NCBI RefSeq assembly: GCF_965641715.1
Contig: NZ_OZ282453.1
DNA: 64,000 bases
Strand: one strand, 5' to 3'
Source of the DNA: Escherichia coli
GTDB taxonomy: Bacteria > Pseudomonadota > Gammaproteobacteria > Enterobacterales > Enterobacteriaceae
Shown here: in pieces, positions 5,906-19,743 of the stretch
Position numbering within the stretch: the stretch's first letter is position 1
Layout: each line of letters starts with the position of its first letter
The notes under the pieces: generated by a model
Databases searched by the model: none
Told to the model about the DNA's origin: nothing
Seen by the model: only the letters and a program-made list of their open reading frames with translations
Position numbers and translations under genes: made by a program

Positions 5906-7132
5906 ATGGGAATTAACGAAATCATCATGTACATCATGATGTTCTTTATGCTGATAGCTGCCGTAGACAGGATCCTGTCGCAGTTCGGCGGTTCTGCTCG
6001 TTTCCTCGGTAAGTTCGGTAAAAGTATCGAAGGATCAGGCGGTCAGTTCGAAGAAGGCTTTATGGCAATGGGCGCACTGGGCCTGGCGATGGTCGGTATG
6101 ACCGCGCTGGCACCGGTACTGGCTCACGTTCTCGGGCCGGTAATTATTCCGGTTTACGAAATGCTCGGCGCTAACCCATCGATGTTCGCCGGAACACTGC
6201 TGGCGTGCGATATGGGCGGCTTCTTCCTCGCCAAAGAGCTGGCGGGCGGCGACGTAGCCGCGTGGCTATACTCTGGGTTAATTCTCGGGTCGATGATGGG
6301 GCCAACGATTGTGTTTTCCATTCCGGTGGCGCTCGGCATTATCGAACCTTCTGACCGTCGTTATCTGGCGCTCGGCGTGCTGGCGGGCATTGTGACCATT
6401 CCGATTGGTTGTATCGCTGGTGGTCTGGTTGCTATGTACTCCGGTGTTCAGATCAACGGCCAGCCGGTGGAATTCACTTTCGCCCTGATCCTGATGAACA
6501 TGATCCCGGTGATCATTGTTGCGATTCTGGTGGCGCTGGGGCTGAAATTCATCCCAGAAAAAATGATCAACGGCTTCCAGATCTTCGCCAAATTCCTCGT
6601 TGCATTGATCACCCTCGGTCTTGCCGCTGCGGTAGTGAAATTCCTGCTTGGCTGGGAACTGATCCCCGGTCTGGATCCTATCTTTATGGCCCCTGGCGAT
6701 AAACCCGGTGAGGTGATGCGCGCCATTGAAGTTATCGGTTCTATCTCCTGCGTTCTGTTAGGGGCGTATCCGATGGTGCTGCTGCTGACCCGCTGGTTTG
6801 AAAAACCGCTGATGAGCGTCGGTAAAGTGCTGAATATGAACAACATCGCGGCAGCCGGCATGGTGGCAACGCTTGCCAACAACATCCCGATGTTCGGCAT
6901 GATGAAGCAGATGGATACCCGCGGCAAAGTCATCAACTGCGCCTTCGCCGTTTCCGCTGCTTTCGCCCTGGGCGACCACTTAGGCTTCGCCGCTGCCAAC
7001 ATGAATGCCATGATCTTCCCGATGATTGTCGGCAAGTTGATCGGCGGCGTAACGGCGATTGGCGTGGCGATGATGCTGGTGCCAAAAGACGACGCGACCG
7101 CGGCTAAAACCGAAGCGGAGGCACAATCGTGA
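5906..7132 (+). CDS. eutH: Ethanolamine permease EutH (408 aa)
   Basis: Polytopic membrane protein translation, expected length and position. Confidence 0.9.
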   Translation: MGINEIIMYIMMFFMLIAAVDRILSQFGGSARFLGKFGKSIEGSGGQFEEGFMAMGALGLAMVGMTALAPVLAHVLGPVIIPVYEMLGANPSMFAGTLLACDMGGFFLAKELAGGDVAAWLYSGLILGSMMGPTIVFSIPVALGIIEPSDRRYLALGVLAGIVTIPIGCIAGGLVAMYSGVQINGQPVEFTFALILMNMIPVIIVAILVALGLKFIPEKMINGFQIFAKFLVALITLGLAAAVVKFLLGWELIPGLDPIFMAPGDKPGEVMRAIEVIGSISCVLLGAYPMVLLLTRWFEKPLMSVGKVLNMNNIAAAGMVATLANNIPMFGMMKQMDTRGKVINCAFAVSAAFALGDHLGFAAANMNAMIFPMIVGKLIGGVTAIGVAMMLVPKDDATAAKTEAEAQS

Positions 7133-8532
7133 ACACTCGCCAGCTACTGAGCGTCGGTATCGATATCGGCACCACCACCACCCAGGTGATTTTCTCCCAC
7201 CTGGAACTGGTTAACCGTGCGGCGGTGTCGCAGGTGCCGCGCTACGAATTCATCAAACGCGAAATTAGCTGGCAAAGCCCGGTGTTCTTTACCCCTGTCG
7301 ATAAACAGGGTGGTTTAAAAGAAGCGGAACTGAAATCGCTGATTTTAGAGCAATATCAGGCTGCGGGCATTGCGCCGGAAAGCGTTGATTCTGGTGCCAT
7401 CATCATCACCGGTGAAAGCGCGAAAACCCGCAATGCTCGCCCGGCGGTGATGGCGCTCTCTCAGTCGCTGGGCGATTTTGTCGTCGCCAGCGCCGGGCCG
7501 CACCTCGAATCCGTGATCGCCGGTCACGGTGCCGGGGCGCAAACCCTTTCTGAACAACGGCTGTGTCGGGTACTGAATATCGACATCGGCGGTGGCACCG
7601 CGAACTACGCCCTGTTCGATGCCGGAAAAATCAGCGGCACTGCCTGCCTCAACGTCGGTGGTCGCCTGCTGGAAACCGACAGCCAGGGGCGCGTGGTTTA
7701 CGCTCATAAACCGGGGCAGATGATTGTGGATGAGTGCTTCGGCGCAGGCACCGATGCCCGTTCGCTGACCGGCGCGCAGCTGGTGCAGGTTACCCGGCGG
7801 ATGGCAGAGCTGATTGTCGAAGTGATTGACGGAACGCTTTCGCCGCTCGCGCAGGCATTAATGCAAACCGGTTTGCTGCCCGCAGGTGTTACGCCCGAAA
7901 TCATTACGCTTTCTGGCGGCGTGGGCGAATGTTATCGCCACCAGCCCGCCGACCCGTTCTGTTTTGCCGATATTGGCCCGCTTCTGGCAACGGCGCTGCA
8001 TGACCATCCGCGCCTGCGTGAGATGAACGTGCAGTTTCCGGCGCAAACCGTGCGCGCCACGGTGATTGGTGCGGGTGCACATACCCTTTCGCTCTCTGGC
8101 AGCACAATCTGGCTGGAGGGCGTACAACTGCCGCTGCGCAATTTGCCGGTGGCGATCCCAATTGATGAAACGGATCTGGTGGGTGCCTGGCAACAGGCGC
8201 TGATTCAGCTGGATCTTGATCCCAAAACTGACGCGTACGTGCTGGCGCTTCCCGCCTCGCTGCCTGTGCGTTACGCCGCGGTACTGACGGTCATCAACGC
8301 GTTGGTCGATTTCGTCGCGCGTTTTCCGAATCCGAATCCCCTGCTGGTGGTGGCCGGGCAGGACTTTGGTAAAGCTCTGGGCATGTTGTTGCGCCCACAG
8401 CTACAACAACTCCCGTTGGCAGTCATTGACGAAGTGATTGTCCGCGCGGGGGACTATATCGACATTGGTACGCCTCTTTTTGGCGGATCGGTTGTGCCGG
8501 TGACGGTGAAATCACTCGCATTTCCTTCCTGA
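7129..8532 (+). CDS. eutA: Ethanolamine ammonia-lyase reactivating factor EutA (467 aa)
   Basis: Translation recognised as EutA; 4-nt overlap with eutH stop. Confidence 0.9.
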   Translation: MNTRQLLSVGIDIGTTTTQVIFSHLELVNRAAVSQVPRYEFIKREISWQSPVFFTPVDKQGGLKEAELKSLILEQYQAAGIAPESVDSGAIIITGESAKTRNARPAVMALSQSLGDFVVASAGPHLESVIAGHGAGAQTLSEQRLCRVLNIDIGGGTANYALFDAGKISGTACLNVGGRLLETDSQGRVVYAHKPGQMIVDECFGAGTDARSLTGAQLVQVTRRMAELIVEVIDGTLSPLAQALMQTGLLPAGVTPEIITLSGGVGECYRHQPADPFCFADIGPLLATALHDHPRLREMNVQFPAQTVRATVIGAGAHTLSLSGSTIWLEGVQLPLRNLPVAIPIDETDLVGAWQQALIQLDLDPKTDAYVLALPASLPVRYAAVLTVINALVDFVARFPNPNPLLVVAGQDFGKALGMLLRPQLQQLPLAVIDEVIVRAGDYIDIGTPLFGGSVVPVTVKSLAFPS

Positions 8533-8627
8533 ATACTGTAGTTATCAGGCGTGGCGCTGGGTGGCTGGGTGTTAGTGGGATTATATCCGGCTGTGTATCC
8601 GGTCGGGGTGATTGGTCTGTATAGCAG

Positions 8628-8648
8628 AAAACCCGGCGCGGGGCCGGG
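8628..8648 (-). terminator. Intrinsic terminator-like hairpin (minus strand) downstream of the 217-aa island ORF
   Basis: aaaacccggcgcggggccggg: GC stem with T-run on minus strand; identical 21-mer recurs at 10317-10337. Confidence 0.45.
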
Positions 8649-8655
8649 TGAACTA

Positions 8656-9309
8656 TCACTCAGGGAACAAGTTGATTTGAAGCAAACTGCCAATGTATTT
8701 ACCAGTGCTTTTAATTTTTCGCTTTGATGGCTTACACGAATTCAGGTTGACACCAGCCTGGCTAGATATTGGCTTGTATTGCCGCTCCGCCAGTACGATC
8801 AGGTCTGCCGCGTCTTTTAGCTTTCCATCGTTAGCCAGTTCCAATGCTCGATCCGCCATTTGCCCGCATTGTTGAATCAGCTTAAGTTGCGATACCTCCA
8901 GTCGCAATTGCTGGATTCGTTCTACCACTTTCGCCCTAATGCGCTTAGTTTCACGCATTCCCATTCTTAATGCCTGGTTGCCAGTAAGTGAGTAAACCTC
9001 TTTTTCTTTCCTGAAGTTTGCGGCTTTACCGTCAGCTTGGACGCGCATTTTATGCGCTTCCAAGAATTCGCCCTCCAATTCATCCCTGATCTTCGCGTTG
9101 AATCTGTCGTTCTTGAGTTCATTTAACCCTTCCGCCTTGCGGATCTGGTTGATTAACTCCAACAATTCATCACTGCGGATACGCCACTCGCTATCAACCT
9201 GTACCAAGTCAAACATGTTGTTGCTCCCGTTTTGCTGCCATAGGGCAACGGCTCGCCAGCCTTTATCACCTCCTTTAGTTGTTGCGATTCTTAACTGAAT
9301 GGTTATCAA
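8656..9309 (-). CDS. Hypothetical island protein, charged/coiled-coil-rich (217 aa as ORF; likely start at internal ATG 9216, 186 aa)
   Basis: ORF translation; GGGAG-type RBS upstream of internal ATG at 9216; no domain recognised. Confidence 0.45.
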   Translation of the reverse strand: MITIQLRIATTKGGDKGWRAVALWQQNGSNNMFDLVQVDSEWRIRSDELLELINQIRKAEGLNELKNDRFNAKIRDELEGEFLEAHKMRVQADGKAANFRKEKEVYSLTGNQALRMGMRETKRIRAKVVERIQQLRLEVSQLKLIQQCGQMADRALELANDGKLKDAADLIVLAERQYKPISSQAGVNLNSCKPSKRKIKSTGKYIGSLLQINLFPE

Positions 9310-9380
9310 AACGCTGCGTTAATATCATTGATATGTATCAAATTTGTTTTGTGACGCGACAATGCCTTGTGAATATCAAT

Positions 9381-9404
9381 AAAAAACCCAGCGCTATGGC
9401 TGGG
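9381..9404 (-). terminator. Intrinsic terminator-like hairpin downstream of HTH-protein gene
   Basis: aaaaaa-CCCAGC-gctatg-GCTGGG on plus strand, i.e. hairpin followed by T6 on minus strand. Confidence 0.45.
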
Positions 9405-9437
9405 CTTCGTTTAATGAGATGGGATTGAAAGCGGGTT

Positions 9438-10220
9438 TTATTTATCTCCCAGATTGTATTCCCAGTTGGGAAGTAAAGTTATCAGCTTGTCACCTTTCTT
9501 GCCTTTGCCGATCTGGTTGCCGTTCTCGTCTTTCTTGTGTGTGATTTCCTGGTCAACCTTAATCAATCCTCTCTCTTTGGCTTGCTCAATCAGTCGGTAG
9601 AATGCGCCGTTACTAATCGGCTTCCGGTTACCGTCGTTATCCATCGCAGTGATTTTCTGTTGCAGTCCGGCGTTATTGCCCAGGTATTCGCCACCTAACG
9701 CCGCCAGTACCTGACACAACATGCCGACACTGTATTTTTTCGGATTTGGGTTAATCCATTCTTTAGCTCCCATCTCTTTTTTGTCGTTGGGCGCTTGTTC
9801 TGCTGCTACTGCGTTCACCTTTTCATCTCCCATCTTGTTACCGCTTGCTGTGCGCTTAATTTCTTCCAGTTCTCTCTCAAGCTCACCTATACGTAATTCA
9901 CGCTCGATAATTACCCCGCGCAGCACATCATCATCACCGTGAGGGCTTGCCTGAATCCAGTTACCATTGGCGAGCGGTAGGAGGGCATAAATTCCGAACA
10001 GGTCACAAAGCGCGGCAAGTGTATTAAAATCAGGTTCCCGGCGTCCCTCCATCCAGTGGCTAACAGCGCCTTTTGTGACTGGTTCGCCTTTCTTGCTTTT
10101 AACACCCATGCGATCCAGTGCGGCGGCTATCTCTTCGCATTTAATGCCACGACCGCCAGCATAGCCCGCCGCTTTCGCGGCCCCTTTGAGGATGTCGTGA
10201 ATTTTCATTTCGTAACTCAT
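9438..10220 (-). CDS. Putative HTH (XRE-like) DNA-binding protein with uncharacterised C-terminal domain (260 aa from second ATG)
   Basis: Helix-turn-helix-like segment ...EEIAAALDRMGVKSKKGEPVTKGAVSHWMEG...; GGGAGA RBS 8 nt upstream of ATG at 10220. Confidence 0.55.
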   Translation of the reverse strand: MSYEMKIHDILKGAAKAAGYAGGRGIKCEEIAAALDRMGVKSKKGEPVTKGAVSHWMEGRREPDFNTLAALCDLFGIYALLPLANGNWIQASPHGDDDVLRGVIIERELRIGELERELEEIKRTASGNKMGDEKVNAVAAEQAPNDKKEMGAKEWINPNPKKYSVGMLCQVLAALGGEYLGNNAGLQQKITAMDNDGNRKPISNGAFYRLIEQAKERGLIKVDQEITHKKDENGNQIGKGKKGDKLITLLPNWEYNLGDK

Positions 10221-10226
10221 AATTTT

Positions 10227-10257
10227 ATCTCCCATCTCATGAACTATGGTGGGAGAT
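10227..10257. promoter_or_regulatory. Inverted repeat ATCTCCCA-N15-TGGGAGAT overlapping RBS/start of the HTH gene (candidate operator)
   Basis: Arms at 10227-10234 and 10250-10257 seen directly in sequence; the left arm coincides with the RBS/first-codon sequence, so arm identity may be partly coding-driven; function inferred. Confidence 0.3.
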
Positions 10258-10316
10258 TAACACGGCGGGCCTGTGGCGGGTAAGTGTAACGGGAGAGAAT
10301 GTTGATTCAGGTCACA

Positions 10317-10337
10317 AAAACCCGGCGCGGGGCCGGG
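10317..10337 (-). terminator. Intrinsic terminator-like hairpin downstream of the 158-aa island ORF (copy 2 of 21-mer)
   Basis: Identical to 8628-8648. Confidence 0.45.
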
Positions 10338-10359
10338 CTGTGTTAGTACGTCGTTGCTC

Positions 10360-10836
10360 TTAGTTCATGAGGAGATCTTTAAATTCGACGCCGTATTCAT
10401 GGGCAATGTCGCCTCTATAGTAGATGTTATCTTTCAGGATATATCCGACGTTTCTCAGGACGTGAGAACACTCTCTTACTGCTGCCTCTTTACCCCTTAA
10501 AACATCCTCCCCGCTAACTTCTTCGCCGCTGTACTTCACTGCGATGTTGTCTGCTGCACGCTCTGCTGCTTCCAGGCAATTAATCTTCACTTTTCCCCGA
10601 TTCTCCCAGGCAAAATCGCGGCCATAAATCCCCATTGCATCAACCATCTTTTGCGCAGTAGTGCGCTCATCCACCCATTCAGTGCGTTCGAACTTCTCGC
10701 CAGCAGCTACCCTTGCCGCCAGTTGTTCGTGTTGAGTCTGTACGGCCGCAGCCTCTTCTTCCCATTTGCCTTGCTCGTTGTATACGATGAAGCCAGTGAT
10801 GACTGCAGCGATTAGTAACTTGTCCAGAAAATTCAT
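10360..10836 (-). CDS. Hypothetical membrane-anchored protein (158 aa, N-terminal hydrophobic helix)
   Basis: ORF translation MNFLDKLLIAAVITGFIVY...; strong AGGAGGA RBS upstream of ATG. Confidence 0.5.
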   Translation of the reverse strand: MNFLDKLLIAAVITGFIVYNEQGKWEEEAAAVQTQHEQLAARVAAGEKFERTEWVDERTTAQKMVDAMGIYGRDFAWENRGKVKINCLEAAERAADNIAVKYSGEEVSGEDVLRGKEAAVRECSHVLRNVGYILKDNIYYRGDIAHEYGVEFKDLLMN

Positions 10837-11089
10837 AGCTTCCTCCTATCTGTTCAATTACCCGGCATCTCTTGCCGTTGAACGTATTAAACAAAATGCC
10901 AGTCAGGGATAAAGCGATCTGCGTCATAAAGTCCATCCCCCATCTCATTGATATTGATGGGAGATTGTTTAATTGGTCAGAAATTAAGCGTTTATGTGCG
11001 CTGCCGGGTATCCACCTCCTATCTGAAGATGGAAAGATGGGTGATATAATGTGATGGCAATTGGTGGATTGCGTGGTTTTTACAATGAT

Positions 11090-11120
11090 AAGGGGCTGGC
11101 GTAATGCTGGCCCCTTTGTT
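11090..11120 (+). terminator. Plus-strand-specific hairpin plus T-run (candidate terminator of a short plus-strand transcript)
   Basis: aggggctggc-gtaat-gctggcccc-tttgttt; stem needs G-U wobble pairs so folds only as plus-strand RNA. Confidence 0.3.
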
Positions 11121-11356
11121 TATCCGGTATCCGGTATCCGGTATAAGCGGGCGTGTATCCGGTAGCGGGGATATGGGCGCGTGTACGTGAAATCTGGCAA
11201 ATTAGCAGGGTAATTGTGAGGGAATTTTTGCGTAGGAGCGTTTGTGGCTGGTAGCTCAAAATTGAGCTTTGCTTTTCATTCAATGACTTAGGTTAATTCT
11301 AGCAAAACGCTAGGATTGAATGTCCGCCAGTCTGCTTCCCCTAGCGTGGGATTTGG

Positions 11357-13723
11357 TCAACGTCTGCGCGGCTGCAAAATTCCTCCGGGTCGTTGTGATT
11401 CACGCTGCATCAGTCGCATCGCTGTGTTTTCTATGGTCTGCTGCAGCGCTTTTGAGTCTTCCTCTGTCCAGCCGTTGTTAGCCTGGATGTTGAACGTATT
11501 GTTCATCGTGATTCCGCCACCGCCTACCAGATCGCGGCCCGGTGTAACTCGTCCACCTTCACCCGGGATCATGTACTGTTTCCCGCCAGTGGATGTAAAT
11601 AGCTCCGGTACTCCGTGCTCCCCGACCCTATAAAGATTGCCACCGTTAACAGCCCCGCCGTTGTAACGAGCGCCAGCCAGTCCAAGCGTTTTGGCGGCAG
11701 CTACGCCAGTAGTAAGCCCGGTAAGTCCAGTGGCCCCAGCGCCGCCCATCGTGGCTACGTTAGCCAGGTATGCAGGAGTGGCCCACGCCGATCCTAATGC
11801 TGTAGCCTCTGCTAGTGCTTTAGCTGTTGCGGCTGCGTTTGCGGCTTCACCAATTAGCTGCTGTTTAACCCACTCAGCACCCATCTGGACAATGCCACCG
11901 ACCACAGAAGACAGGATCGTACTGCCAACGTTGGCAAGTGACTCTTGCAGCGATTGAGTACCGTTTATCAGTCCGGTAAATGCGCTGCCAGCGCCAGACG
12001 ATAACCCATCGACCATATTCCCGATGAGGCCATTTATATCGCTTTGTTTCTTCCACTGCTGCCACTGGAGATCCAGAACCCTTTGTTCATGTGCGATCTC
12101 TTCCTGGCGCAACTGCTCTTCGGTAGCCCCAAGATCTAGAAGCATTTGCTTGCGAACAGCCCATTCATTTTGGATCTTCTGTATTGGGTCAATCTGAGCT
12201 TTCTGCTTATCCTGCTCACTGACAAGACTGTCCCATTTCGCTTTCTGCTTGCGGATGGCTTCAGCTTCATCAATTGCTGCGAGTGTACTTGCTCGCTGTT
12301 TCGCGCTGATCAACCGTTTCTGCTCAGCCGCTTCCAGGTCTTCTACTGCTTTTTTCCGTTTATTGAGCGCCGCTAGTTCGGGATCGTATTTTTCCACCAA
12401 TGAAAGGCCGCTTGCTTCCTTACGTTCGCGTTCTCTTTGTGCCTGTTTGGCTGCCTGCTTAGCGGCGTTTTCTGCTTGTTTGGCTGCTCTTTCTTTCGCC
12501 CTGGTGTTCTCTTCTTCCTTGCGCTTATTCTCTTCTAACTCCTTGTTTTGTTCGCGTAATTTAACGATTTCCTCATGATGCGCCTTTGTCAGCTGGCCTT
12601 CTTTCAGTGCCCGATCTATATCAGCGTTTGCGTTGCCTTTTAGCTGTTCCTGTTTAACTTGCAGATGTTTAATCATCATTTCGCCAGTGGCAATCGCTGC
12701 CGCAGACGCTCCAGCATTCAGAGCTTCATTTAACGCTCTCTGACGTTCTTCTGCTGTTAATGCCTCGTTGCTGTATCGAAGTAGCGCATCAACGTATTTC
12801 TCCAGTTCTGCGCGGCCTGCCGCAGTTGCTGGTTCCATTGCTTTTAGGATGCTCAGAAGGCTTTGCGCTTCATAGGAAGACGGGTTTTTGCGGAACTGCG
12901 CCATAGCGTTATAAAGCGCCATAGCTTCACCCTCTGTGATTCTGTACTTAGCTCCCAGCCCTTCAATGACCGCTGATAACTGTTTGCCAAGCGCTGCACC
13001 GAATGCGCCTTCCTTGCTTAATTTGTTGAGCACTTCACTCAGTGAATTTCCTGACACGCCCAGCGCGTCGAGTTCTCTTGCTACCGTTCCCAGGTCGCCG
13101 CCTTTCATCCATCCTGCATTAGAAAATTCAGTGATAGCCCGGCCCGCTTCCCGCGTTTCTTCCTGGAGTGTTTTTAGCGCCCGCACGGCCTGCTCTTTCA
13201 TTACGGCGGCGGCAATGGCGTTGTTCTGTGTGGCTTCGTAATATGAATCACTGAAAGCGTTAACGCCCTGGGTGGATTTGCCGATCACGGCGTCGATTGA
13301 TGCTAATGCCTCCTTCATCCTTTCAGCGCTATCCGTTGCGTCGTCCATGCTGTCCGTTAGGCTGTTGGCAATCGCCCCGCCAATAGCCATCACCGCCCCC
13401 ATGACCGCACCGCCAGTACCGAAGGCAGCGGCAAGTTGTGCACCCTGCACAGCGAACGCCTGGAGCGCATTACCGCCCATCTGCAATTGAGTGGCAAGGT
13501 CTGCGATCTGGTATGATGCGTTACGGATTGCCGGGGAAAGGTTGGTTTTGACTGCGGCAGACGTTTTGGTCATCTGCGTGTTCAGTTTTTTGACGCCACT
13601 GTCAGCGCGTTTTGCGCCGCGTTCTATACTGTCAAAAGCCTGGTCCGCTTCTTGTTGTGCTGCCAGGAGTTTACCAGTACGGGCGTCGACCTCATAGTAT
13701 ATGGTCCCAAGATTCCCACTCAT
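11357..13723 (-). CDS. Phage tail tape-measure-like protein (788 aa)
   Basis: Long Ala/Gly/Gln-rich coiled-coil protein; C-terminal motif ...GGNLYRVGEHGVPELFTSTGGKQYMIPG... resembles the conserved C-terminal block of siphovirus tape-measure proteins. Confidence 0.6.
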   Translation of the reverse strand: MSGNLGTIYYEVDARTGKLLAAQQEADQAFDSIERGAKRADSGVKKLNTQMTKTSAAVKTNLSPAIRNASYQIADLATQLQMGGNALQAFAVQGAQLAAAFGTGGAVMGAVMAIGGAIANSLTDSMDDATDSAERMKEALASIDAVIGKSTQGVNAFSDSYYEATQNNAIAAAVMKEQAVRALKTLQEETREAGRAITEFSNAGWMKGGDLGTVARELDALGVSGNSLSEVLNKLSKEGAFGAALGKQLSAVIEGLGAKYRITEGEAMALYNAMAQFRKNPSSYEAQSLLSILKAMEPATAAGRAELEKYVDALLRYSNEALTAEERQRALNEALNAGASAAAIATGEMMIKHLQVKQEQLKGNANADIDRALKEGQLTKAHHEEIVKLREQNKELEENKRKEEENTRAKERAAKQAENAAKQAAKQAQRERERKEASGLSLVEKYDPELAALNKRKKAVEDLEAAEQKRLISAKQRASTLAAIDEAEAIRKQKAKWDSLVSEQDKQKAQIDPIQKIQNEWAVRKQMLLDLGATEEQLRQEEIAHEQRVLDLQWQQWKKQSDINGLIGNMVDGLSSGAGSAFTGLINGTQSLQESLANVGSTILSSVVGGIVQMGAEWVKQQLIGEAANAAATAKALAEATALGSAWATPAYLANVATMGGAGATGLTGLTTGVAAAKTLGLAGARYNGGAVNGGNLYRVGEHGVPELFTSTGGKQYMIPGEGGRVTPGRDLVGGGGITMNNTFNIQANNGWTEEDSKALQQTIENTAMRLMQRESQRPGGILQPRRR

Positions 13724-14012
13724 AATATCTTTATCCGCGTTGTGCGGACACCTCCGATTATTCTTTACTCTAATAATTTCACAATGAAACAGTTTATTGC
13801 CGCTTCAGTGGCTTCGTGTTCCGGTTTGCTTCGATCAATCACAAAAAATACAGCTTAATAGAATCAATGGCTTATAAAGTTGTATTAGCTATGTTTCTTC
13901 GTCCGTGCCACTGAAAACCCAGTTTTTCCAATGGAATCAATACTGATATGTATCCATACTGTTTTTCACATAATGTACGTTATGCGCACTACGGGAAACG
14001 TACTGAATTTAT

Positions 14013-14243
14013 TTACTGGTCGCCGTTCAGTTCATGCAGAGTCTGTTCTGGCAATGAATCCAGCCAGTTTTCTGCATCCTCCCTGTAACACTCCAGGATG
14101 CAACGGTTTGTGAAGTTGATGAAAGCGGTCAGTGATTCTGCTTCGTCGTTCCTGTGCGTTCTCCTGGCGTGCTTGCGTAGTCGTTTCGCGTCTGCCAGTT
14201 GGTCATTGAGTATCTTCAGTCTGTCGGCAATATCATCGTTCAT
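14013..14243 (-). CDS. Hypothetical small island protein (76 aa)
   Basis: ORF with GAGGGAGAG RBS upstream of ATG. Confidence 0.4.
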   Translation of the reverse strand: MNDDIADRLKILNDQLADAKRLRKHARRTHRNDEAESLTAFINFTNRCILECYREDAENWLDSLPEQTLHELNGDQ

Positions 14244-14378
14244 GTCGTCTCTCCCTCGCGCGCGCGTCGTACTTGTCCGAAAATTACCCCCATAAAAGCG
14301 CCCCTCATATAGTGCAAAATCCCGGCTGACGCGGATCTCAGTGGGTTTTAGCAGTGAAAACTGACATCAAAAACGGCT

Positions 14379-14426
14379 CGCTAAGGTCCGCTAAGTATCC
14401 GCTATCGTTCGCTAACCCCCCGCTAA
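14379..14426. repeat. Five direct CGCTAA/CGCTAT hexamers phased at 10-11 bp (candidate protein-binding array)
   Basis: Copies at 14379, 14389, 14400, 14410, 14421; one helical turn apart; intergenic. Confidence 0.5.
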
Positions 14427-14430
14427 CCTA

Positions 14431-14796
14431 TTAGATATCGCATCCAACGCTATTGAGCTGGCTATGTATATCGGCGCGAATTAACTTCAGGCGTTTACAA
14501 AATTCGCGTTCTTCCGAATTAAGCTCGCGGCCACCTTGTTTCGAGGCAATGAGCTTGTTGATGGTGGAAAGCGAATATTCACTCCATATACGAAGCATTT
14601 GTCGCTTCATTGGTTGCTCGCTCAATGGTGAGTTTTTCAGGTCTGACACGCGCTCTGCGACGGTTCTTGCGATGCCTTGTACCACTCGTAGTGCCAACAT
14701 GATGATTTTCTCCGGACTTGTGCTAATATAGTTCCCGAACATTGTTTCGAGACTGCTTATCCTGTTTGTCTTGTCCGATTTGTTCATTGGTCGCAT
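14431..14796 (-). CDS. Hypothetical island protein (121 aa)
   Basis: ORF only; weak RBS, so lower confidence. Confidence 0.35.
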   Translation of the reverse strand: MRPMNKSDKTNRISSLETMFGNYISTSPEKIIMLALRVVQGIARTVAERVSDLKNSPLSEQPMKRQMLRIWSEYSLSTINKLIASKQGGRELNSEEREFCKRLKLIRADIHSQLNSVGCDI

Positions 14797-14838
14797 TGTT
14801 AAGTCAGCCGGGGTAATTCCCGGCTTTCTTTTATCCGA

Positions 14839-15381
14839 TCAGTACCGAATCCCTATCGCATTGAATACGCGTTTCCGTTGCTCAGCTTCAGGATCGGCGG
14901 CCATTTCTGGTTCTGGCTCCGGCATAGACGGGGCGGCATCAAAATGCTCAATTTCACGACCGAAATACGAGTTCAGGTCAATACCTGCCGAACTATCCAC
15001 TCCATCAAAATAGCGACGCTGTTCCTCGGTGAGACAGCTACCCAGACGTTCCTCAACCTGCGCCATAAACTCAGCATCCGGTGAGAAGTACTCATCCGGA
15101 GTCGGAGCACCGCTCTGTTTGTGCATCTCCATTTTCTCTGCGTTCGTTTTCAGCCCGGCAATGCGTTTCTCCAGTCCGGCGGCTTTAATAGCGTCAGCAA
15201 CGATTTGTGGGATCTGCGGTTTAATTATTTCGATAACTTCATTGCTGATTAATTTAAACTGGGCCATACGGATCGCTTTAATCTGCTTATTTAACAGTGC
15301 GCGTTCCCCTTCGTTGGCGGTTTTATCACGCTGTGCTACCAGTTCATCGCCTTTGTTTGTCAGTACATCAAATGCGTCCAT
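14839..15381 (-). CDS. Hypothetical island protein (180 aa, acidic C-terminus)
   Basis: ORF with strong GGAGGAGG RBS. Confidence 0.5.
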   Translation of the reverse strand: MDAFDVLTNKGDELVAQRDKTANEGERALLNKQIKAIRMAQFKLISNEVIEIIKPQIPQIVADAIKAAGLEKRIAGLKTNAEKMEMHKQSGAPTPDEYFSPDAEFMAQVEERLGSCLTEEQRRYFDGVDSSAGIDLNSYFGREIEHFDAAPSMPEPEPEMAADPEAEQRKRVFNAIGIRY

Positions 15382-15398
15382 TGTCTTTCCTCCTCCGA

Positions 15399-15725
15399 TT
15401 ATTTAAAAGTGCTTATTGACACGCCGAAACGACGACTTAATTCAAAAAGGAGTCGCGCCTTTGCAGTGCCTTCCATGTCTTCCGGCATTTCAGACTGAAG
15501 TTTATCAGCTACTTCATCAACAAGTGGCCGAACCGTTTCCACGAACTTGTCCGCAATATAATCAGCAGAACGCATCACTTTTTCCTGGAATTCCTCACGG
15601 CGTACCTGGGCGGCTGATTTAGGGGCTGTCGTGCGCTGAAAATAACTGTCTAATGAATGCATGGCATCTGCTCCTTTTACTTTGATTGCTGTTATTTCTT
15701 TAATTGTGTTTGCTTTGATTTTCAT
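15399..15725 (-). CDS. Hypothetical island protein (108 aa)
   Basis: ORF with AAGGA RBS; tightly packed after upstream gene. Confidence 0.5.
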   Translation of the reverse strand: MKIKANTIKEITAIKVKGADAMHSLDSYFQRTTAPKSAAQVRREEFQEKVMRSADYIADKFVETVRPLVDEVADKLQSEMPEDMEGTAKARLLFELSRRFGVSISTFK

Positions 15726-15801
15726 GCTGCCTATTCCTTCAGAAATTGCGGTAGTTTGCTTTTTAAATCAATAAGTTATTTGATAATCTCAGTAGCTGTT
15801 T

Positions 15802-15993
15802 TCATTGGTGGCGAGCGCCTTTGTTTTTATAGAATTCCAAAATCTCAGATCGGATAAACTTAATTCTTGAGCCAATCGGACTGACCGGGACGGGCCAGCC
15901 TTTAATCTTGTTCATCCACCGGAATATTGTCCGACGGGTAACGCCGAATAAAGCTGCTACCTCGTTAACCGTCATTAATTCGCTATCATTCAT
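15802..15993 (-). CDS. AlpA/excisionase-family small HTH regulator (63 aa)
   Basis: Translation ...MTVNEVAALFGVTRRTIFRWMNK... matches AlpA-type prophage regulators; typical partner of P4-type integrases. Confidence 0.6.
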   Translation of the reverse strand: MNDSELMTVNEVAALFGVTRRTIFRWMNKIKGWPVPVSPIGSRIKFIRSEILEFYKNKGARHQ

Positions 15994-16280
15994 GTTCTCA
16001 CCTCAAAAAGTAGCGGTGAGGAAAATATGGAGAAAACCCTCACCGCGCCCTGAATGAAATTAAAGACCAACATTACTGTTGATACTTATTATTATATTCC
16101 TCCTGTCCCTGTTTCACATCTTTTACCATATAGTGAAAGGGGATATTCTGTAATGTTTACAAAACTTTTAATTAGCAAAAAATAATTGCGCATCTCACGT
16201 AATGCAGGGATAATATTACTCAAGGGCTGGTTGCCCTTACTCAAAATGTGATCTATAACTACAACGATCTATTTCACTTC

Positions 16281-16307
16281 CCCGCTTTCTCCGGCGGGAT
16301 TTTTTTG
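16281..16307 (+). terminator. Plus-strand intrinsic terminator-like hairpin within 600-bp noncoding stretch
   Basis: cccgc-tttctccg-gcggg followed by a ttttttt. Confidence 0.4.
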
Positions 16308-17122
16308 CCTGCAATCTGGCACCATTGCGCACATTAAAATTAGATGCCATTTAAAAGCGATATAACGCGTTCTGCCGGGCTTAATTTTGGCTATCCACTT
16401 GGAAGGGTAAGCCTGTTTTGATTCGTCTGGCGTGGAATGGTGCGGCGGTAATATCAGATCTCAGCGTTCTGCGTGGTGGGATGAAATAGCCTGGCAGGAT
16501 TTGCGTGTGGTTTGCTCTCCCAAAAAATGGGGTAATGGCGCTGGCTGGATGGCAGGACTCCGCGCTGATTACTGGATGGCTGAAAATTTAATGAAATCGC
16601 ATCAATTTTAATGCGTCTAAATCGCTCTGTGGCGACGTGAAGTTTTCAGGTAAGCAAGTGTAGCTGTGTGGTGTGTTCATCGCGTTACTGGCACCATTCC
16701 GTTCGAATTTGGCGCTATCAGGATGGTTTGCGGTGGTCGGCGGCGGGGATAAACTTGCTTGAGTGGTCACCTCAGCCTGCTGTGCGTCGTGTGATGGTAC
16801 TGTCTGCACCTGGCTATACGCTGCTTTGCTGCTGTTTCCTGTCTGGTCTGTATACGCGATAAAACCCATCGGCTTTACAGTGAGTGAGTTTTTTGCGCTT
16901 TGCTTTCCATTCGGTTTGCTTACTGCTGCTGTGTGTCTGTGCGGTAGCTCAGAAAGCTGTCGATGATAACCATCACTGCCAGACCGTCTTTTGAGCTGGC
17001 GATTGCTCGAAGTCTTCCGAAGGTCCGCTGGGCTTGTTGCTTGTTTGTGTTCTTTTAAAATGCGCGCCTCTTACTTTCTCTTAAAAAGAAAAAAGGAATA
17101 TACAGATCTCATACTATGTGTG

Positions 17123-17273
17123 TCCCAAATGTCACACGTCATGGCCTGACCTGTATCCCAAATGTCACACGTCACCCTCTGACCTGTATCCCAAATGTCA
17201 CACGTACCTGTGTCCCAAATGTCACACGTCTATTGTTAATTAATTGTTGACCTGTGTCTCAAATGTCACACGT
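17123..17273. repeat. Iteron array: five direct copies of TCCCAAATGTCACACGT (fifth TCTCAAATGTCACACGT)
   Basis: Copies start 17123, 17156, 17189, 17213, 17257; AT-rich block tattgttaattaattgttga between copies 4 and 5. Confidence 0.65.
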
Positions 17274-17338
17274 CTGTTGATGGTTTAAGTAATAAAAAGG
17301 GCCACCATTTTAGGTGACCCATTGATGCGTTTTAGTCG

Positions 17339-18103
17339 TTATCTTGCGTTCTCGACCTGAAAAAGCATTCTGTATTTTCTTGCGTGCTGACCAATAACAT
17401 ATTCCCCGTATGGCTCAATGAGTCCTAACTCAACCAGGATTTTCATCTGGCGAATTACGGTGCGGCGATTCATGCCCCATTCATCAGCTATTTTTGCCTG
17501 GCAAACTTCAGATACATAAGATCCATCATTCTGCTTTCTTGCTGCTGATGCAATGCTGGATAATACGCTCCAGGCTGTAGCTTTAGCTTTATTCTCGCAA
17601 CCACTTCTGACAAATGCCTTACGTGCCGCACCCAAACAGACATAACTGCAATAAATTCCTTTTTCTTCCGTTTGGTATTGTGTCTCTTTATCCTGCATGG
17701 CTTCCGGTTCTTCCGGCGCTTCCTGCTGTGGTGCTGTCTGCGAAGTTTTAGCGGCCATACTGCGTAGCTCGTTCACGATATCAGTAGCTGATTTCTTCTC
17801 GCTTTTAGTTTCCTGCGTGACTGATAAATACTCACCTTGTAACGCCAGGAAGTCAGCGCGGGCGTTTGCCTGGCTTTGTTCTGGTGATTCAGGTTCTGCA
17901 TCGGCAGGTGATGAAATCGGTGATACACGCGCCCAGCCTGTTTTGGCGTTGCATTCCCAGCGATAACCATTAAAGCGGATATCATTCAGGCCATCATCAA
18001 TGGCGCTCCGTACTTCTTCCGGGATCGCGTCGATTTTCTGAAGGCTGTGTTTACCGAGTGATTCGCCTTGCCGTGGGGCGTAGGCGGTTGGTAAAATATT
18101 CAT
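17339..18103 (-). CDS. Putative winged-HTH DNA-binding protein, candidate replication initiator or regulator (254 aa)
   Basis: C-terminal HTH-like segment ...GMNRRTVIRQMKILVELGLIE...; perfect AAGGAGA RBS; iterons immediately 3' of gene. Confidence 0.5.
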   Translation of the reverse strand: MNILPTAYAPRQGESLGKHSLQKIDAIPEEVRSAIDDGLNDIRFNGYRWECNAKTGWARVSPISSPADAEPESPEQSQANARADFLALQGEYLSVTQETKSEKKSATDIVNELRSMAAKTSQTAPQQEAPEEPEAMQDKETQYQTEEKGIYCSYVCLGAARKAFVRSGCENKAKATAWSVLSSIASAARKQNDGSYVSEVCQAKIADEWGMNRRTVIRQMKILVELGLIEPYGEYVIGQHARKYRMLFQVENAR

Positions 18104-18349
18104 GTGGGATTTCTCCTTTTTACTTGTTTCCCATATCGCCCGGATTGGTTAGCGGCCTTCCGGGCTTTTTGTTGCGTTGATCCTATTTTCGATCCCCGGA
18201 TTTTTTATTACAAACTTGGCTTAATCATTGATTTTATTGGTATAGCTGTATAAAAGGATAACAGGATAAAAGGGTGATAGATTGTGTAACCTGTTAACCT
18301 TTTATACCAGTAAGGCGAAAGAAAAGCCGGACGAATCCGGCCTTATAGT

Positions 18350-19555
18350 TCACGGCTCCAGCGGATTACCGCCACCAGCCAATATCTGGTCGATGGCGTC
18401 GCTGTAGTCCTGCATCATGGCCCGCCGTTGCTTCAGATAGGCCGCCTGGTTATAAACGCCGCGCACACCTTTCGGAACGTGGGCCAGTTGGATTTCGATC
18501 CAGTCTGGTGAGTATCTGCCGTACTCGTTAAGTGCGGTTGAAAAGGTGGTTCGCCAGCCGTGACCAGTGGCTATCGACTTGTATCCGATACGCTCCAGGG
18601 CTTTAAGGATGGCACTGGCTGAAAGTGGCTTATCCATGAATCGACCAGGGAACACAAAAGCACTGTATCCGCTGCGGGTAAACTGGTCCTGTAATAGCTC
18701 GACCGCCTGCCGGGATAGCGGGACCACATGCGGGCGGCGGGCCTTCATGACTTCAGCGGGTAGGGTGATGGTTGCCGATTCCAGATCTACCCACTCCCAG
18801 CGCATTAAACGCAGTTCTGCGGTCCTTAGGGCGCTTAATATAAGCAAACGTATTGCCGTCTGAATCTGAACGCTCCCGGCTCTCTCAAGGGCTTTGTAGA
18901 AGGCCGGGATTTCGTTAATTTGTATCCATGCGTTATGGCCTGGGCGTCGGGCTTTCAATGCCGTGTCCAGATCTGCAACCGGATTTCGGTTAACCAGTTC
19001 AGTGATAACGGCAAATTTGAAGATTTCCCCTATACGCTGCCGTAATTTTCGGGCCTGTTCCGGCGCGGTGCGCTCTTTCTTCTGAAGCAATGCCAGCACG
19101 TCACGGGCCGTTATATCGACAATCGACCGCTTGCCAAGTACCGGATAAACATCTTTCTCCAGTGCCGATCTAACTTGTTTCGTGTAAGACTCAGACCAAC
19201 CGCTCACTCTGGTAGCAAACCAGTCTTCCGCTACCGTCTTAAAACTTGCCGCCATGTTGAGCGCATCAATGGCTTTCTCCTTGCGCGCTTCTTCCATTGG
19301 GTCAATTCCCTGGGCGATGAGTAAACGGCTCTCTGTGGCGCGTTTACGTGCTTCCTTCAAGGTAATCAGCGGATATACCCCAATAGCCTGTAACCGCTCT
19401 TTCTTGTCTATCCAGTACCGGAATCGCCAGTATTTGCTGCCATTGGGATGTACCAGCAAGAACAGGCCAGGTGTCTGTGAATCGGTGAGTTTGTAGGGCT
19501 TGTCCTTCGGCTGGGCGGCCTCTATGCCCTTTGCTGTCAGTGGTGTCTTGCTCAA
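18350..19555 (-). CDS. Tyrosine-type site-specific integrase, P4-like family (401 aa, TTG start)
   Basis: Translation ...GLFLLVHPNGSKYWRFRYWIDKKERLQAIGVYP... typical N-terminal arm-binding region of P4-type integrases; located at island edge. Confidence 0.85.
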   Translation of the reverse strand: MSKTPLTAKGIEAAQPKDKPYKLTDSQTPGLFLLVHPNGSKYWRFRYWIDKKERLQAIGVYPLITLKEARKRATESRLLIAQGIDPMEEARKEKAIDALNMAASFKTVAEDWFATRVSGWSESYTKQVRSALEKDVYPVLGKRSIVDITARDVLALLQKKERTAPEQARKLRQRIGEIFKFAVITELVNRNPVADLDTALKARRPGHNAWIQINEIPAFYKALERAGSVQIQTAIRLLILSALRTAELRLMRWEWVDLESATITLPAEVMKARRPHVVPLSRQAVELLQDQFTRSGYSAFVFPGRFMDKPLSASAILKALERIGYKSIATGHGWRTTFSTALNEYGRYSPDWIEIQLAHVPKGVRGVYNQAAYLKQRRAMMQDYSDAIDQILAGGGNPLEP

Positions 19556-19743
19556 AACCGGATACCTCGATCTAACGACTCGATAACCCCGCTCATGTAT
19601 CCGTCGCGTTCGGTTGCGTTCGGCAGGATAAGTAACGGGCGTATTAAGTGGAACACCTTACAGGACAAGGGATAACGATGAAATAGAATTGTTCGAATGC
19701 TGTGAAAAATGTTACTCATCACTTCTTCCTGAGGGAACGACTT

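What the first reader, a model, noticed from the sequence alone, without database searches (positions are those of the whole stretch)
11357..13723. Lone tape-measure-like gene with no other tail, capsid or lysis genes
Seen: a 788-aa Ala/Gly/Gln-rich coiled-coil protein with a C-terminal NLYRVGEHGVPELF-type motif, followed by about 520 bp of noncoding DNA and preceded by small unknown ORFs. No terminase, portal, capsid, tail tube, baseplate or lysis genes are present in the island. Established: tape-measure proteins normally sit inside a tail-assembly gene cluster. Inference: either a relic of a decayed prophage or a repurposed gene; the flanking small ORFs could be tail assembly chaperones, but I see no evidence of that.
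Basis: partly seen in the sequence, partly recalled or inferred. Interest (0 to 1): 0.4.

Follow-up and report, generated by a model that had tools for sequence, protein, structure and literature searches.

The report
Satellite-like island carrying its own tape measure
The lone tail tape-measure gene is real and intact, and it is a conserved, selected part of a family of ~11 kb E. coli mobile elements (relatives of the K-12 "cryptic prophage" CPZ-55) that look like parasites of mEp021-type phages, not the last scrap of a dead prophage.

Summary
Window 11357-13723 (- strand) encodes an intact 788-aa tape measure protein (TMP) in an 11.2 kb island between eutA and eutB, with no other tail, capsid or lysis gene.

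The "decayed prophage relic" reading is not supported.
- The island belongs to the CPZ-55/IntZ family.
- Relatives carry an intact TMP (726-790 aa) at the same position. It sits behind a ~260 bp non-coding element conserved across all of them.
- Loci retrieved using only that non-coding element had an intact TMP in 15 of 16 informative cases.
- Element-borne alleles show dN/dS of 0.10-0.21 and tight length classes.
- Integrase-less relatives assemble as ~11 kb circles. They carry AlpA, HNH, a small terminase subunit (TerS), sometimes a neck/tail-completion gene, the TMP and a replication protein (Rep).
- TMP, TerS and the neck gene all find their closest coliphage relatives in the mEp021 (mEpimmI) group.
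- The TMP ends resemble the mEp021 and mEp013 TMP ends; the core does not.

Best reading, inferred and not shown: a phage satellite supplies its own TMP to helper tails, as shown for Vibrio PLE satellites in 2025. I found no paper linking CPZ-55 to this. The window's element lacks TerS and HNH, so its own mobility is uncertain.

The parts
8525..8532 (.). 8-bp target-site duplication CTTCCTGA, which includes the eutA stop codon; this is the island's left border
   Evidence: same TSD (TCAGGAAG on the other strand) reported for CPZ-55 in PMC6379469
8656..9309 (-). 217-aa anti-repressor-like (Ant) protein with its own terminator; variable cargo
   Evidence: PHROG anti-repressor families, E~1e-5; terminator at 8631-8649 identical to mEp021 TERM_5
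9438..10235 (-). 265-aa HTH protein, a YffS homologue
   Evidence: HTH_31/HTH_3 below threshold; 70% identical to K-12 YffS
10360..10836 (-). 158-aa protein of unknown function, a distant YffR homologue, with its own terminator at 10317-10337
10837..11356 (.). 520-bp spacer after the TMP gene. It holds a 12-bp-stem hairpin (11090-11116), four ACCGGATA repeats (11121-11163) and a 65-bp remnant of a small reverse-strand gene that is intact in relatives
11357..13723 (-). 788-aa tape measure protein; its ends resemble helper-phage TMPs around a different core
13724..14013 (-). ~260-290 bp conserved non-coding element directly upstream of the TMP, or of neck gene plus TMP in some relatives; probably regulatory
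   Evidence: 78-92% nt identity in all family members whatever the flanking genes; no RNA covariation; no Rfam hit
14013..14243 (-). 76-aa protein of unknown function; TerS plus a YffP-like protein occupy this position in other family members
14431..14796 (-). conserved small core protein (ORF 121 aa, real product probably ~89 aa from 14697); three-helix bundle, no TAC-like match
14839..15381 (-). 180-aa conserved core protein of unknown function
15399..15725 (-). 108-aa conserved protein of unknown function
15802..15993 (-). 63-aa AlpA/excisionase-type HTH_17 regulator
   Evidence: PF12728 E=7e-9; PHROG 66
17119..17285 (.). five iteron-like repeats TGTRTCYCAAATGTCACACGT; probable replication origin
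17339..18103 (-). 254-aa HTH_36 protein, replication-initiator-like
   Evidence: weak, sub-threshold hits only: HTH_36 23.9 bits vs cutoff 25; PHROG replication initiation families E 6e-4 to 6e-3
18350..19555 (-). IntZ tyrosine integrase
   Evidence: 92% identical to K-12 IntZ; annotated intZ in relatives
19725..19732 (.). second copy of the 8-bp duplication; island's right border, just before eutB

Best explanation
The 788-aa ORF is a functional tape measure protein. It is a conserved module of the CPZ-55/IntZ family of ~11 kb E. coli mobile elements. These elements are most likely satellites of mEp021-type (mEpimmI) temperate siphophages. When a helper phage grows lytically, the element's tail module would be switched on from the conserved ~260-bp region upstream of it. 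The element's TMP has an N-terminal ~45 aa, a C-terminal ~110-350 aa and an overall length resembling the mEp021 and mEp013 TMPs. It would therefore be built into helper-encoded tails in place of, or in competition with, the helper TMP, giving chimeric tails.

The likely benefit is that particles carrying the element inject DNA through a TMP core that differs from the helper's. That could escape TMP-directed exclusion or tail-assembly inhibitors, and it could tax the helper.

Shown: homology, intactness, purifying selection, fixed synteny, linkage to the conserved non-coding element, and three independent gene links to the mEp021 group.

Inferred: induction by a helper, incorporation into tails, and the benefit.
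For: (1) Full-length TMP homology.
(2) Every eut-integrated relative examined other than K-12 has an intact 726-790 aa TMP at the same position (L001-L004, L016, L018, L020-L022, L030, L033, L034-L036). K-12 CPZ-55 lacks exactly this module between yffP and yffQ.
(3) Retrieval by the non-coding pattern alone gave an intact TMP starting ~155 bp downstream in 15 of 16 informative loci from JGI metagenomes and IMG/VR.
(4) dN/dS is 0.10-0.21 with dS 0.4-1.4 among seven element-borne alleles, and is low in every 80-codon window tested.
(5) The 120 best homologue clusters are dominated by two tight length classes: 725-728 aa (45) and 784-791 aa (57). A smaller group of 7 sits at 732 aa. Identity within the long class falls to 69%.
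(6) The phage TMPs are 781 aa (mEp021) and 735 aa (mEp013), against 784-791 and 725-734 aa in the elements.
(7) Against mEp021 the window TMP is 78% identical over residues 1-45, 57% over the last 110 and ~20% in the core.
(8) Family members carry satellite hallmarks: AlpA, HNH, Sf6-type TerS, Rep with iterons, and integrase.
(9) Integrase-less relatives assemble as ~11 kb circles. L008 has a 119-bp terminal overlap and a MEGAHIT flag_3 label, which I read from memory as a standalone loop. L009 overlaps by 30 bp and L012 by 38 bp.
(10) TerS-like proteins match mEp021 gp50. A 147-aa neck/tail-completion protein is 46-48% identical to mEp021 gp59. An HTH in L001 is 81% identical to mEp021 gp02. 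The island's terminators are identical to mEp021 TERM_5.
(11) Precedent: PLE satellites encode a TMP that replaces the ICP1 TMP in chimeric tails (PMC11838301).
Against: - There is no experimental or virome evidence that any family member is induced, packaged or transferred.
- The window's element lacks TerS, HNH and the neck gene, so it may be a non-mobilisable derivative.
- No tail assembly chaperone or tail-tip gene accompanies the TMP, unlike in PLE. The foreign core would have to work with the helper's chaperone.
- Apart from the TMP gene and a few 23-27-bp matches (two of them terminators), no DNA similarity, and no cos or pac site, is shared with sequenced mEp phages.
- Closest phage TMPs are only 44-59% identical and only over the ends, so the true helper may be unsequenced.
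- Only about 105 of the 488 complete E. coli genomes with an IntZ island carry the TMP module.
- No copy lies on a plasmid in 5,426 complete genomes, and PLSDB has none. That sits oddly with the circular contigs.
- Some of the selection signal could have accumulated while alleles resided in phages.
Confidence: 0.5

Rival explanations
1. Tail-assembly interference or defence. The element's TMP acts mainly as a dominant-negative decoy. It enters helper or invading mEp-type tail assembly through its phage-like ends and yields defective or poorly infective tails. This protects the host population or taxes the helper, without being needed for the element's own transfer.
For: The ends resemble the phage TMPs while the core is foreign. 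Tail-assembly blocking is an established defence strategy of PICIs, P4-like satellites and prophages (Tai, PMC11364771; Tab, PMC10884400; Rta, PMC11838301). Defence cargo sits immediately next to the TMP module: AIPR in L002 and a type I R-M system in L003. The window's element lacks packaging genes yet keeps the TMP.
Against: Known tail-assembly inhibitors are small proteins, not TMP homologues. Strict conservation of full length and of both ends across alleles down to 69% identity, plus pairing with a neck/tail-completion gene in some members, suggests a protein that must complete functional tails. PADLOC gives no hit.
Confidence: 0.2
2. Relic of a decayed prophage. The TMP is the last surviving late gene of a once-complete phage and has no current function.
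For: There are no other structural genes in the island. CPZ-55 is described in the literature as a cryptic or 'grounded' prophage. Decay does occur in the family: K-12 lacks the module and L014 has a truncated 633-aa copy.
Against: The ORF is intact. dN/dS is 0.10-0.21 at dS up to 1.4. 15 of 16 independently retrieved copies are intact. The position is fixed behind a conserved non-coding element. The rest of the island has no DNA match in 50,697 phage genomes. Circular ~11 kb relatives have the same architecture. A neutral 2.4-kb ORF would not stay open across this divergence.
Confidence: 0.08
3. The TMP is co-opted for a function outside virions, for example a membrane-active toxin or effector, or a factor in the element's own DNA transfer or host physiology.
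For: There are hydrophobic, membrane-type segments at 89-126, 594-619 and 667-685. TMPs are noted to be toxic when expressed (PMC11838301 methods).
Against: Both phage-interface ends and a phage-like length are retained, and the gene is linked to TerS, HNH and neck genes. No secretion, immunity or toxin-associated partner gene was found.
Confidence: 0.07

Closest known systems
PLE satellites of Vibrio cholerae, which encode their own TMP and build chimeric tails with ICP1 parts (PMC11838301, 2025 preprint)
   Same: A small integrative satellite lacking most structural genes carries a conserved TMP gene, and the TMP length is close to the helper's. In PLE11 the satellite TMP was shown to replace the helper TMP in virions.
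   Different: PLE also encodes a tail assembly chaperone and a baseplate hub; here the TMP stands alone or with a neck gene. The PLE helper is a lytic myovirus. Here the candidate helpers are temperate siphophages with lambda-like tail tips. PLE TMPs are ~20% identical to ICP1's throughout. Here the ends are 56-78% identical to the phage TMPs and the core is foreign. No experimental data exist for this family.
CPZ-55 cryptic prophage of E. coli K-12 (intZ, yffL-yffS)
   Same: Same insertion point between eutA and eutB with the same 8-bp duplication. IntZ is 92% identical, YffS/265-aa is 70% identical, and YffR/158-aa is a distant match.
   Different: K-12 CPZ-55 is 6.8 kb and lacks the conserved upstream element and the TMP. 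It keeps YffO, which I find to be an Sf6-type TerS. In the papers I could search it is treated only as a cryptic prophage.
PICIs of Gram-negative bacteria (int, alpA, pri-rep, packaging-redirection genes)
   Same: ~11 kb size. Integrase, AlpA-type regulator and a replication protein next to iterons, with all genes in one orientation. TerS is present in many family members.
   Different: Canonical PICIs have no tail genes. The Rep here is an HTH_36, YffL-like or DUF5906 module rather than the typical Pri-Rep. Some relatives have no integrase and assemble as circles. Helper induction is untested.
Putative E. coli satellites with MCP, decoration protein, TMP and baseplate hub (Barth et al., PMC10055350), cf-PICIs, and EPIPs of Mycolicibacterium (bioRxiv 2025.12.02.691453)
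   Same: These are also satellites or putative satellites reported to carry a TMP gene.
   Different: They also encode capsid or connector proteins, and integrate at tRNA or lysR sites or use serine integrases. Barth's elements lack alpA and terminase genes. The family here has no capsid genes and sits in eut or is circular.
TMPs of mEp021/mEp013 (mEpimmI) coliphages
   Same: Best phage matches. The first ~45 aa, the last ~110-350 aa, the C-terminal NLYRVGE motif and the lengths (781 and 735 aa) are shared.
   Different: The phage genes lie inside a complete tail cluster. The central ~380 aa is unrelated (~20% identity), being TMP_2-type in the window protein and TMP_3-type in the phages (Pfam column).

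Membership tests
Phage tail tape measure protein | Sequence homology to TMP families over most of the length | tested here: met
   PHROG 1538 E=8e-112 covering residues 1-774. PDB 9occ_M 'tail tape measure protein gp18' E=1e-41 covering 72-746. Pfam TMP_2 is below threshold, 25.7 vs 30.2 bits.
Phage tail tape measure protein | Long, largely helical, Ala/Gly-rich protein with hydrophobic segments and a conserved C-terminal region | tested here: met
   Composition, three hydrophobic stretches, and the motif at 696-709. The C-terminal 110 aa is 57-65% identical to mEp021 and mEp013 TMPs.
Phage tail tape measure protein | Encoded within a tail gene cluster, after the frameshifted chaperone pair and before tail-tip genes | tested here: not met
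   No tail genes in the island. The upstream ORFs do not overlap and there is no slippery heptamer. The conserved upstream protein is a three-helix bundle with no significant PDB fold match.
Phage tail tape measure protein | Sits inside the tail tube and sets tail length | not testable with these tools
   Needs virion proteomics and electron microscopy. Indirect support comes from tight length classes that parallel the phage TMP lengths.
Phage satellite (PICI-like) | Small element with integrase, AlpA-type regulator and its own replication module, lacking most virion and lysis genes | tested here: met
   IntZ, HTH_17, an HTH_36 protein (sub-threshold Rep-like hits) next to five iterons, 11.19 kb between the TSDs.
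Phage satellite (PICI-like) | Genes that redirect helper packaging, such as TerS | tested here: not met
   No TerS or HNH in the window's island. They are present in relatives L004, L008-L012, L018, L020, L022 and in K-12 as YffO.
Phage satellite (PICI-like) | Induced by, and packaged in particles of, a helper phage | not testable with these tools
   Only circumstantial evidence. TMP, TerS and the neck gene all match the mEp021 group best among coliphages. Relatives assemble as circular ~11 kb contigs.
PLE-type chimeric-tail module (TMP + TAC + baseplate hub) | Satellite-encoded TMP accompanied by its own chaperone and hub | tested here: not met
   Only the TMP is present here. Some relatives add a neck/tail-completion protein (PHROG 5). 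No TAC or hub was found.
CPZ-55 / IntZ island family | IntZ-type integrase and insertion after the eutA stop codon with an 8-bp duplication | tested here: met
Tail-assembly-inhibitor defences (Tab, Tai, Rta) | Small non-structural protein that blocks tail assembly of an invading phage | not tested
   The 788-aa protein is a TMP homologue, not a small inhibitor. PADLOC (2023) gives no hit, but these systems post-date that library. A functional resemblance (interference) remains possible.

The most novel reading that the evidence does not exclude
The CPZ-55 'cryptic prophage' family, including the K-12 copy as a TMP-less derivative, is an unrecognised class of E. coli phage satellites of mEpimmI-type siphophages. 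Its signature hijacking device is a swappable tape measure protein: phage-matching N- and C-terminal adaptors around interchangeable ruler cores of three kinds. This module is driven from a conserved regulatory element. The family exists both as eut-integrated islands and as integrase-less ~11 kb circular episomes.
Probability: 0.45. Interest if true: 0.75.

Novelty: new variant of a known kind. Interest (0 to 1): 0.62.

Why it matters
If correct, this reclassifies a textbook K-12 'cryptic prophage' family as a satellite lineage. It extends the very recent finding of satellite-built chimeric tails (PLE/ICP1, a myovirus) to E. coli and to lambda-like siphophage tails.

It also offers a tractable system: K-12 hosts, isolated mEp phages and natural islands. 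That system could address why a parasite would replace only the tape measure. Possible reasons are bypassing TMP-directed superinfection exclusion, evading tail-assembly inhibitors, or sabotaging the helper.

The modular structure (conserved ends, interchangeable cores, strict length classes) is a natural experiment on which TMP parts contact the tail tip, the neck and the chaperone.

Practically, annotation pipelines label these genes 'hypothetical' or count the island as a defective prophage.

Tried and rejected
- **Programmed frameshift or chaperone pair upstream.** The 121-aa and 76-aa frames do not overlap, and the only slippery heptamers lie in the non-coding region. Rejected.
- **Chaperone by sequence or fold.** No Pfam, PHROG or PDB-sequence hit. 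The AlphaFold model of the conserved ~89-aa protein (pLDDT 93) is a generic three-helix bundle, with best PDB Foldseek E=0.13. The 76-aa and 180-aa proteins were not modelled.
- **Structured RNA in the conserved upstream element.** The covariation term is +0.68 with one compensatory pair, and Rfam finds nothing in the island. No support.
- **Shared cos or pac site or promoter with mEp021.** Island DNA outside the TMP has no blastn match in the phage collection. Local short-word searches gave chance-level hits, two terminator matches, and one unexplained 27-bp identity inside the Ant-like gene to the mEp021 region upstream of TerS.
- **Defence annotation.** PADLOC and NCBIfam gave no hit for any island protein.
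- **Plasmid identity of the circular relatives.** No E. coli match in PLSDB, and none on plasmids in complete genomes.
- **Spread beyond E. coli.** The conserved non-coding pattern had no exact match in 100,044 species-representative genomes.
- **Long att repeats.** No direct repeat of 9 bp or more was found between the ends. The 8-bp duplication was found only after reading the literature.
- **Literature.** No paper links CPZ-55, intZ or the yff genes to satellites or to a TMP.
- **Not attempted.** Genome-wide co-occurrence of islands and mEp-type prophages. The tools list at most 60 records per search.
Full report
**1. What is in the window**

The window is E. coli chromosome; identical or near-identical TMP proteins are recorded from E. 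coli assemblies. The eut operon runs on the + strand: eutH, then eutA at 7129-8532, then eutB from 19744, then eutC, L, K and R.

The operon is interrupted by an island whose genes all lie on the - strand. GC falls from about 0.56-0.59 to 0.45-0.53 across it.

The borders are the 8-bp duplication CTTCCTGA at 8525-8532 and 19725-19732. This is the duplication published for the K-12 cryptic prophage CPZ-55 (PMC6379469). The island is therefore 8533-19724, or 11.19 kb.

Gene order, read along the - strand:
- IntZ integrase (18350-19555).
- A 254-aa HTH_36 protein with weak, sub-threshold replication-initiator hits (17339-18103).
- Five iteron-like repeats (17119-17285).
- An AlpA/HTH_17 regulator (15802-15993).
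- ORFs of 108, 180, 121 and 76 aa.
- The 788-aa ORF (11357-13723).
- A 520-bp spacer.
- Three cargo genes, each followed by a terminator-like hairpin: 158 aa, a 265-aa HTH protein, and a 217-aa Ant-like protein.

**2.

The 788-aa protein matches PHROG 1538, 'tail length tape measure protein', end to end (E=8e-112). It also matches a TMP resolved in a solved tail structure (9occ_M, E=1e-41). Pfam TMP_2 falls just under its cut-off.

No other island protein hits a head, tail, terminase or lysis family.

**3. It is not a relic**

*Relatives carry the same module.* Other E. coli carry related IntZ islands at the same site, in 488 of 5,426 complete genomes. The backbone is mosaic. Every non-K-12 relative I opened has an intact TMP at the same position:
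- 733 aa in L001.
- 726 aa in L002.
- 790 aa in L003 and L004.
- The same holds in L016, L018, L020-L022, L030, L033 and L034-L036.

K-12 CPZ-55 lacks exactly this module. The sequence after yffP continues directly into DNA homologous to the spacer downstream of the TMP.

*A conserved non-coding element marks the module.* The ~260-290 bp immediately upstream of the TMP (13724-14013) is 78-92% identical in all members. This holds whichever TMP allele follows and whichever gene precedes. The preceding gene can be the 76-aa ORF, TerS plus a YffP-like protein, an AIPR defence gene, a type I R-M system or an acyltransferase.

I used a 23-nt pattern from this element to fish in JGI metagenomes and IMG/VR. 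It returned 19 loci, of which 16 had enough downstream sequence to judge:
- 15 had an intact 726-790 aa TMP starting about 155 bp after the pattern.
- One (L014) was truncated at 633 aa.
- The other three were uninformative: one TMP ORF ran off its contig, one contig was too short, and a 2.1-kb contig (L032) had only a 105-aa ORF downstream.

About 105 complete genomes carry the element plus the TMP 5' end, always once and always on the chromosome.

*Selection and length.* Seven element-borne alleles of the long class differ by dS 0.4-1.4 but dN/dS is only 0.10-0.21, and it is low in every 80-codon window tested.

The 120 best homologue clusters, all with E. coli names where a name is given, are dominated by two tight length classes:

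| Length class | Clusters |
|---|---|
| 725-728 aa | 45 |
| 732 aa | 7 |
| 784-791 aa | 57 |

Identity within the long class runs continuously from 100% down to 69%.

A neutral 2.4-kb ORF would not stay open, or keep its length, over this divergence. One caveat applies. Alleles recombine with phage alleles, for example in the L010 C-terminus. Part of the signal may therefore have accumulated in phages.

**4. What the element family is**

Outside the TMP gene, the island has no blastn match in 50,697 phage genomes.

Many homologues sit on contigs of 11.0-11.9 kb. Four such contigs were opened:
- L008, from a metagenome, has a 119-bp terminal overlap and a MEGAHIT 'flag_3' label. I read that label from memory as a standalone loop.
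- L009 has a 30-bp terminal overlap.
- L012 has a 38-bp terminal overlap.
- L010 shows no overlap.

These contigs have no integrase and are syntenic with the eut islands. Their order is AlpA, HNH, homologues of the 180-aa and 121-aa proteins, an Sf6-type TerS (homologous to K-12 YffO), a YffP-like protein, in two of them a 147-aa protein, the TMP, a small reverse-strand gene, a YffQ-like protein, and Rep of HTH_36 or DUF5906 type.

Taken together, the family has these features:
- Integrase or an episomal form.
- An AlpA-type regulator.
- A replication protein next to iterons.
- TerS and HNH in many members.
- A small, fairly uniform size.
- No capsid, tube, baseplate or lysis genes.

This is the profile of a phage satellite.

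**5. Candidate helper**

Three element genes point to the same coliphage group, the Nus-dependent non-lambdoid mEpimmI phages (mEp021, mEp013 and others; PMC11893012).
- *TMP.* The best phage matches are all seven members of this group.
- *TerS.* The family's TerS-like proteins match mEp021 gp50. The seven 'Escherichia' and 'Enterobacteria' records hit by the TerS query match the number of mEp-group phages. Only mEp554 was listed by name.
- *Neck gene.* The 147-aa protein is 46-48% identical to mEp021 gp59. Both fall in PHROG 5, 'tail completion or Neck1'.

Two smaller links add to this. An HTH gene in L001 is 81% identical to mEp021 gp02. The island's cargo terminators are identical to mEp021 TERM_5.

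In the phages, the TMP gene is flanked by reverse-strand morons and by HNH homing-endonuclease genes. This fits frequent allele exchange.

**6. Anatomy of the TMP**

Identity of the window protein to the two phage TMPs:

| Region | vs mEp021 | vs mEp013 |
|---|---|---|
| Residues 1-45 | 78% | 56% |
| Central ~385 aa | ~20% | ~23% |
| Last 358 aa | 47% | 58% |
| Last 110 aa | 57% | 65% |

The three element TMP classes share the same two ends, but their cores fall into different Pfam TMP families. Element lengths of 784-791 and 725-734 aa parallel the phage lengths of 781 and 735 aa.

The N-terminal 60 aa comes in two main types. In the 12 long-class loci I could inspect, the 'MSEQVG' type occurs only where the neck gene lies directly upstream (L009, L012, L013). 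The 'MSGNLG' type occurs only where it does not. This is a small sample. It fits an N-terminus that contacts the head-proximal end of the tail.

From general knowledge of siphophage tails, the TMP C-terminus docks in the tip complex and the N-terminus lies near the terminator. The conserved ends are therefore the parts expected to interface with helper proteins.

**7. Mechanism proposed (inferred)**

On helper lytic growth, the conserved upstream element drives expression of the TMP, with the neck gene where present. The element's TMP enters helper tail assembly through its phage-like ends and at the helper's length, and produces chimeric tails.

The benefit is unknown. Possible benefits are:
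- Bypassing TMP-directed exclusion in helper lysogens.
- Resisting tail-assembly inhibitors.
- Reducing helper fitness.

The direct precedent is PLE11, whose TMP replaces the ICP1 TMP in virions (PMC11838301).

The main rival is pure interference, with the TMP acting as a decoy. My data cannot separate the two. The window's element lacks TerS and HNH, so it may depend on other routes for packaging or be a partly disabled member. Near-identical copies of its TMP are nevertheless widespread in eut islands, appearing in 53 collection blocks.

**8.

There is no evidence for tail chaperones:
- No overlapping frames and no slippery site.
- No family hits.
- The conserved ~89-aa upstream protein folds as a generic three-helix bundle.

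The 520-bp 'non-coding' stretch is 98% identical in L002. It contains a strong hairpin, four ACCGGATA repeats, and 65 bp of the 3' end of a small reverse-strand gene that is intact in L008 and L009.

**9. Novelty**

Satellite-encoded TMPs have been reported only recently:
- PLE (PMC11838301).
- Putative E. coli satellites with capsid genes and a baseplate hub (PMC10055350).
- cf-PICIs.
- EPIPs.

None of these is this family. No paper I could search links CPZ-55 to satellites or to a TMP. I rate it a new variant of a known kind, of moderate-to-high interest. The satellite life cycle remains unproven.

Noticed in passing
window 13724-14013 (- strand): A ~260-bp non-coding element is more conserved (78-92% nt, with long invariant runs) than the genes on either side of it across all family members. 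It contains two ATTGATTC repeats about 72 bp apart. There is no RNA covariation and no match to mEp021 DNA. Its function (promoter/operator, packaging site or other) is unexplained.
   Followed up: partly
L008, L009, L012, L010 (relatives); contig lengths listed: Integrase-less relatives assemble as circular ~11.0-11.2 kb contigs, and 17 of the 120 best TMP homologue clusters have a longest contig of 11.0-11.9 kb. None is on a plasmid in 5,426 complete E. coli genomes or in PLSDB. About five copies of 11 kb equal the 54.7 kb mEp021 genome, which may be a coincidence.
   Followed up: partly
L005 (K-12 MG1655) yffO, locus 6112-6528: K-12 YffO is an Sf6-type small terminase subunit homologue (PF20901 E=2.6e-9, above cut-off; PHROG 1482). 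It resembles mEp021 gp50 distantly. It is annotated only as 'uncharacterized protein'.
   Followed up: partly
between the 76-aa gene and the conserved element (window ~14013); L002 7038-9545, L003 839-8293, L035 1740-3356: The position just upstream of the conserved TMP element is a cargo hotspot in relatives. It holds an AIPR abortive-infection protein with a partner in L002, a type I R-M system with an M48 peptidase in L003, and an acyltransferase with an IS1 fragment in L035.
   Followed up: partly
window 8628-8648 and 10317-10337 (also 9383-9403): Identical 21-bp GC-rich terminator hairpins follow two of the cargo genes. They are identical over 23-27 bp to terminator TERM_5 just upstream of the holin gene of phage mEp021.
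   Followed up: partly
window 11121-11163, 8596-8603, 19557-19564: The octamer ACCGGATA/TATCCGGT occurs four times in the spacer after the TMP and once near each island end, in opposite orientations at the two ends. These could be recombinase or accessory-protein binding sites, or a former island end. Only L002 shares the four-copy cluster.
   Followed up: no
window 9035-9061 (inside the 217-aa Ant-like gene): A 27/27-bp identity to mEp021 26738-26764, in the unannotated gap just upstream of the phage TerS gene. Its meaning is unknown.
   Followed up: no
window 17119-17285: Five iteron-like repeats (core TGTRTCYCAAATGTCACACGT) lie next to the 254-aa HTH_36 gene. The replication module is swapped among relatives: rep254, YffL plus a 164-aa protein, a 251-327-aa HTH_36 protein, or a 529-aa DUF5906 protein.
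   Followed up: partly
L006/L007 (mEp021, mEp013) around the TMP gene: In the candidate helper phages the TMP gene is isolated from the rest of the tail cluster by reverse-strand genes. These include a 436-aa HNH homing-endonuclease gene, intact in mEp013 and split in mEp021, immediately downstream. This may drive the mosaicism of TMP alleles.
   Followed up: no
window 7129-8532 and 19744-21105: The island separates eutA from eutB inside the ethanolamine-utilisation operon. All island genes run antisense to eut, so expression of eutBCLKR may be affected. The literature says this for K-12.
   Followed up: no
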